From: Escherichia phage vB_EcoM_PhAPEC2
DNA length: 64,000 nt
Direction: 5' to 3' (one strand)
Sequence record: NC_024794.1
Shown piece by piece: positions 17,803-61,640 of this stretch (the stretch's first letter is position 1; every line of letters starts with the position of its first letter). Both the position numbers and the translations under genes were made by a program. The notes under the pieces are model-generated. The model saw only the letters and a program-made list of their open reading frames with translations. It ran no database searches and was not told the origin of the DNA.

Positions 17803-18462
17803 TTAACCTCGATTCATAAATGCATTAAATATTTGGTCATCAACAGAAATTTCTAATTCGACTTCAATTGCTTCGGCCTTTTCTTCAGGTGGTAATTCGT
17901 ATCCACACACTACAATTTTTTCATCGATATCAAAATATGCAGAAGCAATACGATTAATGTTATTTTCAGTTAAGTCCAAATCAACATCAACATCTTTTTG
18001 GCCTACACTTAAAGGATAACTAATACGGGTTATTTTATTATCTTTAACAAAGAGTCCACCAACATACTCTGTACTACGTTTGAAGTCTACACGTTTCCGA
18101 ATTGAAAGATATGATACATCTTTACCGTGAGCTCGGCTCATAGGACATAATGAATAACTAGAATAAGAGATGTCAAATCCTACACCTTCAATATGAGCCA
18201 ACGTGTCATGGTTAAACCAATTATAATCATATGCCAAATCCATTATATTGTAATATGTGAAAGGCACCGGATTAACATCATATGTTGTACCTTTAAAATC
18301 TGCCCAGGCAACGATTTCGTTATCTTTAACAATTACAAAAATTACACCAAGATGGTATCCGTTATTATTTTCATTCGGCGTTATATTATAACATTGCGCA
18401 TTAGGAAATTTACCATATTTAAATGGTGCGTTTTTGTGCATGTAATAAATCATATTATTCAC
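17803..18462 (-). CDS. hypothetical protein
   Basis: 219-aa ORF. Confidence 0.55.
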   Translation of the reverse strand: MNNMIYYMHKNAPFKYGKFPNAQCYNITPNENNNGYHLGVIFVIVKDNEIVAWADFKGTTYDVNPVPFTYYNIMDLAYDYNWFNHDTLAHIEGVGFDISYSSYSLCPMSRAHGKDVSYLSIRKRVDFKRSTEYVGGLFVKDNKITRISYPLSVGQKDVDVDLDLTENNINRIASAYFDIDEKIVVCGYELPPEEKAEAIEVELEISVDDQIFNAFMNRG

Positions 18463-18748
18463 CTGTGATTTCGGTTACGATATCTTTGTTATCGAAATTA
18501 GGGTCACAATACAAGACATAGTTGTACTGCATGATACCACCAGACTTAAGTTGTTCAACAACTTTATTAACCATATTAGGACGGTCTCGTTTAGTGATGT
18601 TCATGATATCAGAGAAGATTTGTTGTTCAACATCTTCTTGATTTGCAGACATTGACCACTCACAGAGGTCTTTATCATAACCTGCCGTAACTGGAGCCGG
18701 TGCACATGATACTGCAAGTAAGATTGCTGCCAATGATAACTTTTTCAT
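18455..18748 (-). CDS. sp: spackle-like periplasmic protein (signal peptide)
   Basis: 97 aa; signal peptide MKKLSLAAILLAVSCAPAPVTA; GYDKDLCEWSM...YNYVLYCD matches my memory of T4 Sp. Confidence 0.55.
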   Translation of the reverse strand: MKKLSLAAILLAVSCAPAPVTAGYDKDLCEWSMSANQEDVEQQIFSDIMNITKRDRPNMVNKVVEQLKSGGIMQYNYVLYCDPNFDNKDIVTEITGE

Positions 18749-18811
18749 TTTAGCTCCTTAGTTGATTTGATAGGACTACTATACTATAGTCCATCTATAA
18801 TGTAAACAAGT

Positions 18812-19060
18812 TTATTCTTTTTCGCGAATAATAATTACTTGTTGAGGCTGCTGAGCAGATTTCTTTTCGGCAACGATAGACCAAATTAAAGTTCCAATCC
18901 AACCAACCATCGTCCAGTTAAAGAGTAAAGATACAAAGAAGATTGCTGTTGTGCTTTTTGTGCCACGAATAAGTGCGATTACCCAAGGCAACATGTAAAT
19001 GATGATTGAACCAATACCTGCGATTAAAACTGCTACTGAACTAGCTACGAATAATTCCAT
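18812..19060 (-). CDS. small membrane protein
   Basis: 82 aa, two hydrophobic helices; SD AAGAGGAAA. Confidence 0.5.
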   Translation of the reverse strand: MELFVASSVAVLIAGIGSIIIYMLPWVIALIRGTKSTTAIFFVSLLFNWTMVGWIGTLIWSIVAEKKSAQQPQQVIIIREKE

Positions 19061-19067
19061 GTTAATT

Positions 19068-19115
19068 TCCTCTTGATTTGTTATGTTTATAGTATCTTGT
19101 TTTAACTTTGGTGTA
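19068..19115 (-). promoter_or_regulatory. early promoter
   Basis: minus strand GTTTAC, 17 nt, TACTAT. Confidence 0.45.
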
Positions 19116-19121
19116 AACCAA

Positions 19122-19490
19122 TTAATTAAATTTGTTTAAACGTTCAATACACTGGATGTAGTTATTCGCGATTTGTTTCTGGGTAGGCTCTTTACCAGTT
19201 GTTTCAACATAGCGAATGAATGCGATTTCAGTAGCCTGTAAACAATGCTCTTTAACACGTTGTTCTTTTGTCAATGCTACAGTATCAGAATCACGATAAC
19301 GTTGAGCATGAGCATCAGCTTGAATCATTCGATTACCTACAGTAACCGGGTCTTCCACTTCAACTTTAGGTTGTTCATATTGTTTAACATTCGGATTGTA
19401 AATCAGTTGGCCAACGTTATTAGGGATAAAGCCATGGGCACCACATCCGGTTAATCCAAATACCATTGCTAAAGCGATTAATTTTTTCAT
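19122..19490 (-). CDS. putative lipoprotein
   Basis: 122 aa; signal peptide with lipobox LTGC. Confidence 0.55.
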   Translation of the reverse strand: MKKLIALAMVFGLTGCGAHGFIPNNVGQLIYNPNVKQYEQPKVEVEDPVTVGNRMIQADAHAQRYRDSDTVALTKEQRVKEHCLQATEIAFIRYVETTGKEPTQKQIANNYIQCIERLNKFN

Positions 19491-57406: not shown

Positions 57407-57709
57407 TTAGATAGATGTAGGCTCTAATTTTATTTTCATGAACTCGGCAAATTGTCTGGCAGTTTTTATGCCTTGTTCCTGGCATTCAAATGCATCATCA
57501 CAGGGGCTATTTTTGTAATGCTTTGCCATATAGTTATAAAATTTTTCAGAATTCTCAACATTTTGAATTTCGAACAAAGTATATACGTTTTTAATCCCTG
57601 ATTCCATAAAGTTATCAAAGTACGGGTCAACATATGCAGTGCCAACAATAGGAGTCGTTGCTGCAAAAAACCCCAGCATCGCCACAATGGCTATCGCTCT
57701 TAAGGCCAT
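57407..57709 (-). CDS. secreted protein (signal peptide)
   Basis: 100 aa; N-terminal MALRAIAIVAMLGFFAATTPIVGTA; terminator downstream. Confidence 0.5.
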   Translation of the reverse strand: MALRAIAIVAMLGFFAATTPIVGTAYVDPYFDNFMESGIKNVYTLFEIQNVENSEKFYNYMAKHYKNSPCDDAFECQEQGIKTARQFAEFMKIKLEPTSI

Positions 57710-58552: not shown

Positions 58553-58735
58553 TTATAGTGAATTCACGTAGTCAATGAGTTCTTGTTCTTTCCTGTCAAA
58601 TGATTCCATCAATGCTTGATATTCTTCATCTGTTAAAGGAGCATATTCATCGTACGCATTGGTGGCTGCTTGCTCATCCAATAGGTCATGGATAAGTTCG
58701 AACAGTTTAGTTTTCTCTTCTTTAGTCAATTTCAT
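58553..58735 (-). CDS. hypothetical acidic protein
   Basis: 60 aa. Confidence 0.45.
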   Translation of the reverse strand: MKLTKEEKTKLFELIHDLLDEQAATNAYDEYAPLTDEEYQALMESFDRKEQELIDYVNSL

Positions 58736-59226
58736 TTAGGTTCCCAATCGACAATCACAATTTCTAGTTTAGTGGAATACGTATCTAAAATCTCTTCAAT
58801 GACATCCCAGTTTCCACCACCAATACCTGCACCAATTCTTGGCATATAAATTACAGGCTTTGTTATCTTATTCTTTCCGAATTCATTTAATTCTATTATA
58901 CAATTCATTAAAGCAGAGTACTCAAAATTAGGTCCAGGCTCAAACTGTGTATAAAGATTAAAGCAATAAGCTTTATGGGTCTTAAAATATTTTTCATAAA
59001 CCGAATAAGTCCCGAGTTTAGACTCGTCTCCGAATTCGGTTTGAAGTTTATCGGCTTCTAAAATTTTTGGATAAGCCTTTGCTAATTGTCCTGCCACACC
59101 AGCGCCCATTGTATGAAAACAATTACACCCATGAGCAATATTATTACCTTTAGAAAACAGGGCGACAATATCGCCCTTGATATAGTTTTTAATCACTTGC
59201 TGCAAGTCCTCTAGTATAAGAGTCAA
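58732..59226 (-). CDS. macro-domain-like protein (possible ADP-ribose binding/hydrolase)
   Basis: 164 aa; NNIAHGCNCFHTMGAGVAGQL resembles macro-domain glycine-rich loop; from motif memory. Confidence 0.45.
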   Translation of the reverse strand: MTLILEDLQQVIKNYIKGDIVALFSKGNNIAHGCNCFHTMGAGVAGQLAKAYPKILEADKLQTEFGDESKLGTYSVYEKYFKTHKAYCFNLYTQFEPGPNFEYSALMNCIIELNEFGKNKITKPVIYMPRIGAGIGGGNWDVIEEILDTYSTKLEIVIVDWEPK

Positions 59227-59536
59227 CTAGGCGGTCTACCATAGAATTGCATGCTGCCTTATCTTTAGGTTCCGCCACCGAGCATTCTAATATTTGCCAT
59301 TTTTTATGATATCGTTTAATTAAGGTAGACGCCTTGAACCTACTAGACGCCCCATCTTTTTCTCCGTCTTTATACGCATATAATAATTTTTGTGAAAAAT
59401 CTACTTTACACTCTTGACTTTTACCACAATAATCAGACGCCGTTCTGTTTGTATACTCCGTTACATCAGTATATGTAGTATTAGCAAAAGCGTTAAATGA
59501 AACCAAGCCAACTATTAAAGCCAACATTTTGGTCAT
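59189..59536 (-). CDS. secreted Cys-containing protein
   Basis: 115 aa; signal peptide MTKMLALIVGLVSFNAFA; ATGA-coupled. Confidence 0.5.
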   Translation of the reverse strand: MTKMLALIVGLVSFNAFANTTYTDVTEYTNRTASDYCGKSQECKVDFSQKLLYAYKDGEKDGASSRFKASTLIKRYHKKWQILECSVAEPKDKAACNSMVDRLVDSYTRGLAASD

Positions 59537-60075
59537 TCTTTTATTTCCAGTAGTTTATTTGATTTAAGGTAATTAGCCTTTTCTAGGACTTCAGAAGCAT
59601 ATTTACTTCCAGCACTTGTCTTCCATCCTGCATTATATGAGGATATAGCTTTTCTTATATCCCCATTATGTATATTTAACCAATAAGAAAATTCGATATA
59701 AGCCCATCTGGCTGAATTAGACCGCTTAGATAGCATTTTCTTAATTTGGGCATCAGTCATATTATAACCAAGCTGGTTAATTCTTGCCCTCATTGTTGGT
59801 AGATAATTTTGGAACATTCCATACGCATGGTGACCTTTCTTATCTTTAAGATTAATACCGGCAGATGATTCCTGCCATAGTATTGCGGCCATTATGTATC
59901 CAAGTCCTTTCTTATGCATATTTTCATGCGTTTTAAATTTTCCGTCCTTAGAAAACTGTTCCCCAAACTGATAAGCATAATTCAAGTTATCGAGTTGGAC
60001 ATTACTAAAAGTATGCTCGGAGCTATGTGCTGATAATGAAAGAGCAAATAGACCAGCGAGTAGTGCTTTTCTCAT
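59533..60075 (-). CDS. secreted lytic transglycosylase-like protein (SLT domain)
   Basis: 180 aa; signal peptide; SLT motifs QESSAG, AYGMFQ, SYNAGW. Confidence 0.6.
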   Translation of the reverse strand: MRKALLAGLFALSLSAHSSEHTFSNVQLDNLNYAYQFGEQFSKDGKFKTHENMHKKGLGYIMAAILWQESSAGINLKDKKGHHAYGMFQNYLPTMRARINQLGYNMTDAQIKKMLSKRSNSARWAYIEFSYWLNIHNGDIRKAISSYNAGWKTSAGSKYASEVLEKANYLKSNKLLEIKE

Positions 60076-60083
60076 GTTTACCT

Positions 60084-60542
60084 CTAGATTTTAATCACTG
60101 CTTTAGAAGCTTTTCCTGGTAGTCGTTTATTGTTAATAATAGCCATTCTGCATTGAAGAGTCTTCATTTTGAATGCTGGATTTTCGCGACAAACTGTAAG
60201 TCCTAACCAAAGATTTCCATCAGTTATTTCTAAACGGCCTGGGCGATATTCGACACCTTCGACAAAATCTTCATCAACATCTGGACGTGCCGGCATTGAT
60301 AAAAATTCTGTAACTTCTTTAACATGATTTTTTACTTTACGAAATAATTCAAAAACGTAATTCTCATCTATTTCTCTTTGGATGGCACGATCTAAGAGAT
60401 GTTGAGAATACTTGATATGAAAGCCTGGTAGTCCAAGAGACTTTGCAGCATCTTTTATACCGGCATTGATTTGACGAAACTCCGTTTCAAAGATTCGACG
60501 GAGTTTATTGCGGCGGATAAAAACGTCTGAATTGATAGTCAT
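60084..60542 (-). CDS. regB: RegB endoribonuclease
   Basis: 152 aa; near-identical to remembered T4 RegB (FIRRNKLRR..EITDGNLWLG..CRMAIIN). Confidence 0.88.
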   Translation of the reverse strand: MTINSDVFIRRNKLRRIFETEFRQINAGIKDAAKSLGLPGFHIKYSQHLLDRAIQREIDENYVFELFRKVKNHVKEVTEFLSMPARPDVDEDFVEGVEYRPGRLEITDGNLWLGLTVCRENPAFKMKTLQCRMAIINNKRLPGKASKAVIKI

Positions 60543-61064: not shown

Positions 61065-61278
61065 AAGGAATTTCCTCATCGGTGGCAAGGTCATATTCGA
61101 CCAATTGGATAGGCTCATTAATACCATATCCACGTACAGTGATATCGGTTGTCGGATATTTTCCAGTAATATCACCCGTTCTAAATGCTTCAATGAATGA
61201 TTGCTCGCCTGAGCAACTAAACCAGGCGGCAAAACATTTTAAAACATCTTCAGACCCTTCTATAACCAATTTAGCCAT
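61054..61278 (-). CDS. hypothetical protein
   Basis: 74 aa; TAATG-coupled to GrcA-like gene. Confidence 0.45.
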   Translation of the reverse strand: MAKLVIEGSEDVLKCFAAWFSCSGEQSFIEAFRTGDITGKYPTTDITVRGYGINEPIQLVEYDLATDEEIPYVD

Positions 61279-61640
61279 TATAGACTCTCAGTAAAGGTAC
61301 GAGCGATAACGTCGCGCTGTTGTTCCGGAGTCAGAGAGTTAAAGCGAACTGCATATCCGGATACACGGATGGTCAGCTGCGGATATTTTTCCGGATGCTT
61401 AACTGCATCTTCCAGAGTTTCACGACGCAGAACGTTAACGTTCAGGTGTTGACCACCTTCAATTTTAACTTTAGGTTGATGTTCAATTTCAATTTCACGA
61501 GCATGCAAACCGTAGAAAATTTCTGGGTCTACAATAGCGTCTTCTTTAAAAGTCTTAGAGACAATAATCCGGGCTTGAGTACCGTCTTCAAAATAAATAG
61601 TGCCTTTATGTGCACCTTCAAGAATTTGATATGCTTTCAT
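61278..61640 (-). CDS. autonomous glycyl-radical cofactor (GrcA/YfiD-like)
   Basis: 120 aa; C-terminus [31 protein letters not shown] is the glycyl-radical signature of PFL/GrcA. Confidence 0.8.

What the first reader, a model, noticed from the sequence alone, without database searches (positions are those of the whole stretch)
59189..60075. Secreted lytic-transglycosylase-like protein coupled to a secreted Cys-containing protein
The 180-aa product has a signal peptide and SLT-like motifs (QESS, GMFQ, YNAGW); the ATGA-coupled 115-aa product also has a signal peptide. Both are exported, not virion-tail enzymes. Periplasmic peptidoglycan-remodelling proteins made early could serve superinfection exclusion or lysis timing. 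A spackle-like protein, a lipoprotein and a small membrane protein lie at 18455..19490.
Basis: partly seen in the sequence, partly recalled or inferred. Interest (0 to 1): 0.45.

Follow-up and report, generated by a model that had tools for sequence, protein, structure and literature searches.

The report
T4 vs.1–vs exported gene pair
These are the already catalogued genes vs.1 and vs of a T4-like phage: vs.1 looks like an exported cell-wall-cutting enzyme, and vs, long labelled a modifier of a cytoplasmic tRNA synthetase, carries all the sequence marks of an exported protein and always sits directly behind vs.1.

Summary
Two minus-strand ORFs, 59533..60075 (180 aa) and 59189..59536 (115 aa), overlap by ATGA, and both start with a signal-peptide-like N-terminus. 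The window is a Mosigvirus (T4-like) phage, and the ORFs are orthologues of T4 vs.1 and vs, between regB and tk.4.

- Its mature part is predicted with high confidence as a four-helix bundle with two invariant Cys pairs.
- The signal-like N-terminus is kept across at least nine genera, and one orthologue has a lipobox.
- In 34 of 34 loci holding vs, vs.1 lies immediately upstream (gap -8 to +7 nt).
- In published transposon data for T4 and Bas37, only these two genes of the block have depleted insertions. vs is the strongest hit in minimal medium.

Best reading: a periplasmic module of a transglycosylase plus a small partner. The gene identities are already known. The open point is the clash with the cytoplasmic ValRS annotation. 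Superinfection exclusion and lysis timing remain untested.

The parts
59533..60075 (-). vs.1 orthologue, 180 aa: an exported single-domain GH23 / family-1 lytic-transglycosylase-like protein. The predicted mature form is residues 19-180, 18.7 kDa, pI 9.6, with no Cys.
60022..60075 (-). Predicted Sec signal peptide of Vs.1 (MRKALLAGLFALSLSAHS | SEHTF).
   Evidence: Rule-based analysis. 30 of 31 family members keep the n-region/h-region pattern although this stretch is the least conserved in sequence. It is also present in the Ackermannviridae homologue of Det7.
59869..59871 (-). Codon of Glu69, the predicted catalytic acid in the W-Q-E-S-S motif.
   Evidence: Invariant in 31 diverse family members, as are S71, G86, Q89, Y147, N148, G150 and Y159. 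Codon checked.
59533..59536 (-). ATGA stop/start overlap that couples vs to vs.1.
   Evidence: Abutting or overlapping junctions (gap -8 to +7 nt) occur in 34 of 34 loci that hold vs.
59189..59536 (-). vs orthologue, 115 aa, annotated 'valyl-tRNA synthetase modifier'. Predicted exported four-helix bundle; mature form is residues 19-115, 10,966 Da, with 4 Cys.
   Evidence: phrog_1256 E 1.5e-35. 67-70% identical to T2/T4-type Vs. AF2 model pLDDT 87.4 with helices 20-37, 41-64, 69-85 and 90-114. No significant PDB fold match.
59483..59536 (-). Predicted Sec signal peptide of Vs (MTKMLALIVGLVSFNAFA | NTTYT).
   Evidence: The pattern is kept in 34 of 36 homologues and in distant orthologues from Acinetobacter, Providencia and RB49 phages. 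It is replaced by a lipobox (LSGC) in Aeromonas phage PS49.
59249..59428 (-). The four invariant Cys codons of Vs: C37 59426..59428, C43 59408..59410, C85 59282..59284, C96 59249..59251. They form two pairs, each flanking an inter-helix loop.
   Evidence: Invariant in 36 sequences. Exactly four Cys with spacing C-x5/6-C ... C-x8/10-C in every full-length homologue examined. That they form disulfides is inferred.
60084..60542 (-). regB endoribonuclease gene, immediately upstream. Its TAG stop overlaps the GAGG Shine-Dalgarno sequence of vs.1. Context only.
   Evidence: Pfam REGB_T4 E 5.5e-69. Junction sequence.
58732..59196 (-). Macro-domain gene (T4 tk.4 orthologue) immediately downstream. It probably starts at the GTG at 59196, overlapping the vs stop (GTGATTAA). 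Context only.
   Evidence: Pfam Macro E 2.1e-6 and phrog_335. Start-codon reasoning. T4 tk.4 was named AdfM, an anti-DarTG2 factor, in bioRxiv 10.1101/2025.11.20.689424.

Best explanation
The locus is the vs.1-vs gene pair of a T4-like (Mosigvirus) phage, and it most likely encodes a two-protein periplasmic module.

What each protein is:
- Vs.1 is made with a cleavable Sec signal peptide. It is released into the periplasm as an 18.7-kDa single-domain GH23 / family-1 lytic transglycosylase. It would cleave the MurNAc-GlcNAc bond of peptidoglycan with Glu69 as the single catalytic acid.
- Vs is translated by coupling from the same mRNA (ATGA overlap). It is exported in the same way and folds into an 11-kDa four-helix bundle stapled by two disulfides.
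- I propose that Vs acts together with Vs.1 as a partner that restrains, targets or activates the enzyme. Limited wall remodelling in the infected cell then raises phage fitness, most visibly in minimal medium.

Shown here:
- gene identity and the stop/start coupling;
- the lysozyme-like fold and intact catalytic motifs of Vs.1;
- the conserved signal-like N-termini and the conserved Cys pairs of Vs;
- the strict vs.1-vs adjacency.

Taken from a preprint:
- the shared fitness cost of insertions in the two genes.

Inferred, not shown:
- actual export and signal-peptide cleavage;
- disulfide formation;
- transglycosylase rather than hydrolase chemistry;
- any physical or functional Vs-Vs.1 interaction;
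- the biological purpose.
For: Identity. The DNA is 98-99% identical to Mosigvirus phages, with the gene order regB / vs.1 / vs / macro / tk. phrog_600 and phrog_1256 match at full length.

Vs.1 enzyme.
- E69, S71, G86, Q89, Y147, N148, G150 and Y159 are invariant.
- 28 of 31 relatives hit Pfam SLT.
- The AF2 model has pLDDT 84.6.

Export.
- Both N-termini fit the signal-peptide pattern. The pattern is retained although this is the least conserved stretch of sequence.
- A Vs orthologue has a lipoprotein lipobox instead.
- Vs has four invariant Cys, in two pairs that flank helix-helix loops.
- Vs has no in-frame Met after the signal peptide other than Met99, so no shorter cytoplasmic form starting at an ATG is evident (sequence).
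- T4 Vs with an N-terminal His-tag was insoluble in the E. coli cytoplasm (PMC8076793).

Linkage.
- vs.1 lies immediately upstream of vs in 34 of 34 loci, from at least nine genera and from hosts ranging from E. coli to Acinetobacter.
- In Acinetobacter phages the pair is followed directly by further exported or membrane proteins and rI.

Phenotype (bioRxiv 10.1101/2025.11.20.689424).
- In T4 liquid LB competitions, mean insertion reads were about 27 for vs and 23 for vs.1, against 180-650 for regB, tk.4 and vs.3.
- In M9 versus LB, vs changed by log2FC -2.19 (adjusted p 0) and vs.1 by -0.87 (p 0.0055, adjusted 0.155).
- In the independent phage Bas37, reads were 23.5 for vs and 73.8 for vs.1, against 296-619 in the neighbours.
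Against: - Vs is the gene assigned to the classical tau factor that binds host valyl-tRNA synthetase, a cytoplasmic enzyme. I know that assignment from annotations and from memory of the 1970s literature; I could not read those papers. The minimal-medium phenotype of vs also fits an amino-acid-charging role, which is how the preprint's authors read it.
- No signal-peptide predictor, no localisation data and no complex prediction were available here.
- Vs.1 occurs without Vs in Aeromonas phage avDM4, in Ackermannviridae and in Felix-O1-like phages. Vs is therefore not an obligatory partner.
- The Vs fold matches no known lysozyme or transglycosylase inhibitor and does not match Spackle.
- The low read counts for vs.1 insertions could partly reflect polarity on vs.
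- This Vs.1 sequence itself scores below the Pfam SLT gathering threshold.
- From memory: T4 e mutants do not lyse, so Vs.1 cannot be a strong, unrestrained muralytic activity.
Confidence: 0.55

Rival explanations
1. The annotation is right. Vs is the cytoplasmic tau peptide that binds and modifies host valyl-tRNA synthetase. Its hydrophobic N-terminus is not an effective export signal, or only part of the protein is exported. Its position behind vs.1 is compact operon packing with no functional link. Vs.1 is an unrelated exported wall enzyme.
For: Orthology to T4 vs is solid. Published annotation and a review table state that Vs binds valyl-tRNA ligase (PMC8076793). vs is the strongest minimal-medium hit in T4, as expected if aminoacylation matters when amino acids must be synthesised. 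ValRS is conserved in all the hosts concerned, so conservation of Vs across hosts does not argue against this reading.
Against: A canonical signal-peptide pattern is retained across at least nine genera while its sequence drifts, and one orthologue has a lipobox. Two invariant closely spaced Cys pairs are typical of oxidised periplasmic proteins. No internal start is evident that would give a signal-less form. Adjacency to an exported enzyme is 34 of 34. The predicted mature mass of about 11.0 kDa, not the 12.9-13.1 kDa precursor, is the one close to the roughly 10 kDa I recall for tau (the recalled figure is unverified). A tau of that size would imply cleavage by signal peptidase, that is, export.
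Confidence: 0.3
2. Vs.1 is an auxiliary or back-up endolysin. It would be either a signal-anchor-release (SAR) enzyme held inactive in the membrane until the holin fires, or a secreted enzyme that helps the main lysozyme at lysis. Vs would be its timing regulator, linked to lysis inhibition by RI.
For: Vs.1 has a muralytic fold with an N-terminal hydrophobic segment. rI lies in the same leftward gene block (57407..57709), and it directly follows the vs.1-vs cluster in Acinetobacter phages. Some Felix-O1-like homologues are annotated 'putative lysin'.
Against: The hydrophobic core is only about 13 residues and is followed by a small-x-small cleavage site. That fits a cleavable signal peptide, not a membrane-spanning SAR domain. 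Insertions in T4 vs.1 are tolerated, and the gene is classed non-essential. From memory: T4 lysis depends on e and t. e mutants fail to lyse unless spackle is also mutated, which leaves no room for a strong second endolysin.
Confidence: 0.1
3. One reading: the exported pair serves superinfection exclusion, acting like or alongside Spackle and Imm against incoming phage.
For: It is an exported protein pair in an early-region gene block. The phage clearly invests in periplasmic defence proteins elsewhere (Spackle and an Imm-like protein at 18455..19060).
Against: Vs shows no sequence or fold similarity to Spackle. A wall-degrading enzyme would be expected to help entry of a second phage, not hinder it. 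The fitness cost of insertions appears in ordinary competition cultures and depends on the medium, which is not an obvious exclusion phenotype.
Confidence: 0.05

Closest known systems
Bacteriophage T4 vs.1 (uncharacterised 20.7-kDa protein; phrog_600)
   Same: Orthologue: about 83% identical to the T2/T4-type protein, of the same length, in the same position between regB and vs, with the same marginal Pfam SLT match that was reported for T4-like phages.
   Different: Nothing of substance. This is the Mosigvirus version of the same gene. Its function has not been tested experimentally in any paper I could find.
Bacteriophage T4 vs ('valyl-tRNA synthetase modifier', tau peptide; phrog_1256, PF26829)
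   Same: Orthologue: 67-70% identical, 115 aa, in the same position and coupled to vs.1.
   Different: The annotated function is cytoplasmic. The sequence features found here (signal peptide, two Cys pairs, a lipobox in one orthologue, obligatory adjacency to an exported enzyme) point to the periplasm.
Small Sec-exported 'specialised' family-1 lytic transglycosylases of envelope-spanning machines (EtgA, VirB1, IpgF, P19) and E. coli MltE
   Different: The similarity is by fold only (12-19% identity). No secretion or conjugation machine is encoded nearby. The gene is in a lytic phage's early-region block. A partner role for Vs is hypothetical.
T4 Spackle (gp61.3) - gp5 lysozyme
   Same: Both are small, signal-peptide-bearing, helical, Cys-containing periplasmic phage proteins, and Spackle controls a phage lysozyme-fold enzyme. 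It is a functional analogy for Vs acting on Vs.1. The window encodes its own Spackle at 18455..18748.
   Different: There is no detectable sequence similarity, and Spackle is not among the fold matches of the Vs model. Spackle's target is a virion protein of the incoming phage, not a co-expressed enzyme.
Virion-associated phage transglycosylases (T7 gp16, phiKZ gp144, phi6 P5)
   Different: Those are structural or internal virion proteins without Sec signal peptides, and they act during entry. Vs.1 is a small stand-alone exported protein encoded among early-region genes.

Membership tests
GH23 / family-1 lytic transglycosylase (Pfam SLT, PF01464) | Lysozyme-like, mainly helical catalytic fold | tested here: met
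GH23 / family-1 lytic transglycosylase (Pfam SLT, PF01464) | Catalytic Glu in an E-S motif, plus the G-L-M-Q-like and A-Y-N-x-G motifs and a downstream Tyr | tested here: met
   E69-S-S71, G86-M-F-Q89, S-Y147-N-A-G150 and Y159. All the key residues are invariant in 31 diverse homologues.
GH23 / family-1 lytic transglycosylase (Pfam SLT, PF01464) | Score above Pfam's gathering threshold | tested here: not met
   This sequence scores 18.8 bits against a cut-off of 21.3, E 0.0013. However, 28 of 31 relatives match SLT at E <= 0.01, best 1.3e-7, and many database relatives carry a precomputed PF01464 assignment.
GH23 / family-1 lytic transglycosylase (Pfam SLT, PF01464) | Non-hydrolytic cleavage giving 1,6-anhydro-MurNAc products, as opposed to goose-type lysozyme hydrolysis | not testable with these tools
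   Needs muropeptide analysis of sacculus digests. The fold and motifs do not separate the two chemistries.
T4 Vs.1 family (phrog_600) | Full-length sequence match and position between regB and vs | tested here: met
   phrog_600 E 3.7e-67 over residues 1-178. Gene order as in T4 and its relatives.
T4 Vs family (phrog_1256; PF26829) | Full-length sequence match and position directly downstream of vs.1 | tested here: met
   phrog_1256 E 1.5e-35. All database relatives carry PF26829. 67-70% identity to T2/T4-type Vs. Adjacency 34 of 34.
T4 Vs family (phrog_1256; PF26829) | Binds and modifies host valyl-tRNA synthetase | not testable with these tools
   Only annotation and a secondary citation could be read (PMC8076793). 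The original papers were not held.
Sec-dependent cleavable signal peptide (both proteins) | Positive n-region, uncharged hydrophobic h-region of about 10-15 residues, and small residues at -3 and -1 | tested here: met
   My own rule-based scan. The pattern is retained in 30 of 31 Vs.1 and 34 of 36 Vs homologues. No SignalP-type predictor was available, and cleavage itself is untested.
SAR (signal-anchor-release) endolysin | N-terminal weakly hydrophobic membrane-spanning segment of about 18 or more residues without a signal-peptidase site | tested here: not met
   The Vs.1 h-region is about 13 residues (ALLAGLFALSLSA) and is followed by AHS|S.
Spackle (gp61.3) family | Sequence or fold similarity to Spackle | tested here: not met
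   BLASTP of Vs against the window's own Spackle gives no alignment at E <= 100. No Spackle chain is among the 50 Foldseek PDB matches listed for the Vs model, and the best E-value is 0.85.
Periplasmic lysozyme/transglycosylase inhibitor families (Ivy, MliC/PliC, PliG) | Fold similarity to a known inhibitor | tested here: not met
   The Vs model is an all-helical bundle. The Foldseek PDB search returned only generic helical proteins at E >= 0.85.

The most novel reading that the evidence does not exclude
The classical T4 'valyl-tRNA synthetase modifier' Vs is really a periplasmic, disulfide-bonded partner or regulator of the exported lytic transglycosylase Vs.1. On this reading its reported association with ValRS is a post-lysis artefact, a misassignment of the tau factor to this ORF, or a secondary property. 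The requirement for vs in minimal medium would then reflect envelope physiology (restraint or targeting of a wall-cutting enzyme), not tRNA charging.
Probability: 0.3. Interest if true: 0.7.

Novelty: already known. Interest (0 to 1): 0.42.

Why it matters
As a gene call this is ordinary. Both genes are annotated in hundreds of T4-like genomes, and the transglycosylase similarity of vs.1 has been published.

It matters for two reasons. First, it exposes an unresolved inconsistency in one of the best-studied phages. The gene that has carried a cytoplasmic function for about fifty years has every sequence hallmark of an exported protein and is invariably coupled to an exported wall enzyme. Second, a 2025 transposon screen shows that these two genes, alone in their block, carry a fitness cost. 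vs is the strongest minimal-medium hit, and its role is described there as unknown.

A few simple experiments would either correct a textbook annotation and define a new enzyme-partner pair acting on the cell wall during infection, or show how a signal-peptide-bearing protein reaches a cytoplasmic target. Those experiments are localisation, a double deletion, and an enzyme assay with and without Vs.

Tried and rejected
- Direct sequence searches of both proteins against PDB chains found nothing. A profile of the Vs.1 family gave only sub-threshold goose-type lysozyme hits. The fold searches were what worked.
- NCBIfam had no model for either protein.
- Vs as a Spackle-like or known-inhibitor-like protein was rejected: no sequence match and no fold match.
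- Vs.1 as a SAR endolysin was rejected because of the h-region length and the cleavage site.
- The word-indexed search and the single-sequence scan of 1.8 billion representatives suggested a very narrow Vs family (4 and 7 hits). This was a sensitivity limit. Looking downstream of vs.1 in an Acinetobacter phage revealed a distant Vs, which was confirmed by hhalign (87% probability, E 3.8e-6) and tblastn.
- Promoter searches directly upstream of vs.1 found nothing convincing: sigma-70-like, T4 early-like and MotA-box patterns. Expression timing therefore rests on homology with the T4 early region.
- The original ValRS-modification papers and the T4 genome review could not be read, because they are not held. 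Full-text searches found no paper that discusses a signal peptide on Vs or an experimental function for Vs.1.
- The search for related loci with the most divergent Vs alignment failed for lack of a conserved stretch. The closer alignment worked.
- Complex prediction (Vs with Vs.1, Vs with ValRS) was not possible with the tools and caps.
Full report
**1. What is there**

Two ORFs lie on the minus strand at the coordinates given. One is 59533..60075 (180 aa) and the other is 59189..59536 (115 aa). The stop of the first and the start of the second overlap as ATGA.

The upstream gene, 60084..60542, is regB (Pfam REGB_T4, E 5.5e-69). Its TAG stop overlaps a GAGG Shine-Dalgarno sequence for the 180-aa ORF. 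Downstream come a macro-domain gene, tk and rI.

The DNA is 98-99% identical to Mosigvirus phages of E. coli such as ST2 and 348Ecol098PP. In those records the same ORFs are annotated 'hypothetical protein' and 'vs: valyl-tRNA ligase modifier'. PHROG profiles match both proteins at full length: phrog_600 at E 3.7e-67 and phrog_1256 'valyl tRNA synthetase modifier' at E 1.5e-35. The finding is therefore the T4 gene pair vs.1 / vs.

**2. The 180-aa protein, Vs.1**

These are E69, S71, G86, Q89, Y147, N148, G150 and Y159.

- Sequence. Pfam SLT scores only 18.8 bits for this sequence, below the cut-off of 21.3. However, 28 of 31 relatives match SLT, best E 1.3e-7.
- Foldseek. It agrees in rank, with probability 0.99-1, although its E-values are weak at 0.02-0.3.

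The N-terminus MRKALLAGLFALSLSAHS|SEHTF fits a cleavable Sec signal peptide. Its 13-residue hydrophobic core is too short for a signal-anchor-release domain. The pattern is kept in 30 of 31 homologues and in the Ackermannviridae homologue of Det7.

The family is large: 2059 phage records across Straboviridae, Ackermannviridae and Felix-O1-like phages.

The SLT similarity of vs.1 was already published as 'marginally significant', with a suggested role in lysis (PMC1524935). I found no paper that tests the protein.

**3. The 115-aa protein, Vs**

This is the orthologue of T4 Vs, at 67-70% identity to the T2/T4 type. The family has no solved relative.

- Fold. The model is confident for residues 20-114 (pLDDT above 90): a four-helix bundle with helices 20-37, 41-64, 69-85 and 90-114. 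It has no significant match in the PDB; the best Foldseek E-value is 0.85.
- Cysteines. Four Cys are invariant: C37 and C43 flank the first inter-helix loop, and C85 and C96 the third.
- N-terminus. MTKMLALIVGLVSFNAFA|NTTYT is a textbook signal-peptide pattern.

Sequence searches first suggested a tiny family. Inspection of the gene downstream of vs.1 in an Acinetobacter phage then revealed a distant homologue with the same layout. It was confirmed by hhalign (87% probability, E 3.8e-6) and by tblastn links to Klebsiella, Salmonella, Providencia, Aeromonas and RB49-type phages.

I examined 34 loci that hold vs, namely 27 from IMG/VR, 6 GenBank phages and the window itself.
- vs.1 lies immediately upstream in all 34, with a gap of -8 to +7 nt.
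- Every full-length Vs has a signal-like N-terminus and exactly four Cys, with spacing C-x5/6-C ... C-x8/10-C.
- In Aeromonas phage PS49 the N-terminus carries a lipobox (LSGC) instead. This is another route to export.
- The signal region is the least conserved part in sequence while its physico-chemical pattern is kept, as expected for a working signal peptide.
- There is no in-frame Met after the signal peptide other than Met99, so an ATG-initiated signal-less form is not evident.

**4. Phenotypic data from the literature**

A 2025 preprint (bioRxiv 10.1101/2025.11.20.689424) mapped transposon-insertion fitness in T4.

- Both genes are non-essential on LB plates.
- In liquid LB competitions, mean reads per site were about 27 (vs) and 23 (vs.1), against 180-650 for regB, tk.4 and vs.3.
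- In M9-glucose versus LB, vs was the strongest depletion: log2FC -2.19, adjusted p 0. vs.1 followed at -0.87, p 0.0055, adjusted 0.155.
- A clean vs deletion plated poorly on M9.
- In the independent phage Bas37, the same two genes alone in the block are low: 23.5 and 73.8 against 296-619.

The authors say the biological role of the ValRS modification is unknown. Two caveats apply. Insertions in vs.1 may be partly polar on vs. Their M9 top agar also lacked the extra Mg/Ca added to LB top agar, so an envelope-related explanation for the medium effect is not excluded.

**5. Interpretation**

The best-supported reading is a periplasmic two-protein module: a small exported lytic-transglycosylase-like enzyme, and a translationally coupled, exported, disulfide-stapled helical protein that works with it. 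How Vs would act, whether by restraint, targeting or activation, is inference.

From memory, small Sec-exported transglycosylases such as EtgA are controlled by small partner proteins, and T4 Spackle controls the gp5 lysozyme. These are analogies, not homologies. Vs shows no similarity to Spackle.

The main rival is the annotation itself, in which Vs is the cytoplasmic tau peptide that modifies ValRS. I could not read the original work. Secondary sources only repeat that Vs binds valyl-tRNA ligase.

Two points bear on this rival.
- The predicted mature masses are 10,966 Da here and 11,046 Da for the T4 type. They, not the 12.9-13.1 kDa precursors, are close to the roughly 10 kDa I recall for tau (the recalled value is unverified). 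If that is right, tau had been processed by signal peptidase, which means it was exported.
- N-terminally His-tagged T4 Vs was insoluble in the E. coli cytoplasm. That is what one would expect of an uncleaved signal peptide and unformed disulfides.

Neither point is proof. The minimal-medium phenotype fits either reading.

The one suggestive fact is that in Acinetobacter phages vs.1-vs is followed directly by two more exported or membrane proteins and rI.

**6. Verdict**

- The genes are already known, and so is the transglycosylase prediction for vs.1.
- What is worth a second look is the conflict between the cytoplasmic label on vs and its consistently exported, vs.1-coupled character. Together with the new fitness data, this makes a cheap and decisive set of experiments possible.
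- I give the composite periplasmic-module reading 0.55 and the annotated cytoplasmic role with no link to vs.1 0.30. The stronger claim, that the ValRS role is an artefact or a misassignment, gets about 0.3.

Noticed in passing
window 58732..59226 (-): The macro-domain ORF directly downstream of vs is the T4 tk.4 orthologue (Pfam Macro, phrog_335). A 2025 preprint names T4 tk.4 AdfM, an anti-DarTG2 factor. The mechanical ORF call starts at the TTG at 59226, 38 nt inside vs. A GTG at 59196 overlapping the vs stop (GTGATTAA) gives 154 aa, close to the 155 aa of T4 tk.4, and an N-terminus that lines up with the RB49 and Aeromonas phage homologues. regB, vs.1, vs and tk.4 therefore form a tightly packed or coupled chain.
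   Followed up: partly
window 18455..19490 (-): 18455..18748 is a Spackle orthologue (phrog_1586, E 7.5e-42). 18812..19060 is an Imm-like small membrane protein (phrog_1039, E 1.2e-30, matching only the C-terminal part of that profile). 19122..19490 is a predicted lipoprotein (lipobox LTGC) of unknown function (phrog_1754). Spackle and the Imm-like gene are neighbours here. As I recall, sp and imm lie apart in T4.
   Followed up: partly
L002 1438..3284 and L005 665..2517 (Acinetobacter phages DLP2 and Acj9): In these phages vs.1 and vs are followed directly by a roughly 140-aa protein (with a signal-like N-terminus in DLP2), a 99-aa protein with an N-terminal hydrophobic segment, and rI. This is a contiguous run of five predicted envelope proteins. 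In the window the same genes are separated by tk, the macro gene and small ORFs.
   Followed up: partly
L006 1141..1467 (Aeromonas phage PS49, Karamvirus): The Vs orthologue begins MKKLFVLLVVVALSGCKMD. This is a lipoprotein lipobox instead of a signal-peptidase-I site, so this Vs would be a lipid-anchored periplasmic protein.
   Followed up: no
L036 1393..1650 (IMG/VR copy of Escherichia phage vB_EcoM_005; protein P0129): This is a natural internally deleted Vs of 85 aa. It keeps the signal-like N-terminus and the C-terminal half but lacks the first Cys pair. The vs.1 upstream is intact. It may be a naturally occurring vs-defective phage, useful for comparison.
   Followed up: no
window 59159..59177 (-): A terminator-like hairpin (8-bp stem with 5 G-C pairs, 3-nt loop, then GTTTTCT) lies 12-30 nt downstream of the vs stop, inside the start of the macro ORF. 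It could end or attenuate a regB-vs.1-vs transcript. The region as a whole has more terminator-like sites than shuffled controls (9 against 3.4).
   Followed up: no
window 61278..61640 (-): This 120-aa ORF corresponds to the gene annotated 'autonomous glycyl radical cofactor GrcA' in the near-identical phage 348Ecol098PP. It is the T4 vs.6 orthologue, which the literature links to a glycyl-radical domain (PMC1524935).
   Followed up: no
L003 1432..2926 (Aeromonas phage avDM4) and L004 1408..2663 (Salmonella phage Det7): These are phages with a signal-peptide-bearing Vs.1 homologue but no Vs. In avDM4 the next genes are an 83-aa protein without a signal peptide, then a predicted lipoprotein (IYGC lipobox), then the macro gene. 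In Det7 a 212-aa protein without a signal peptide abuts the 205-aa homologue.
   Followed up: partly
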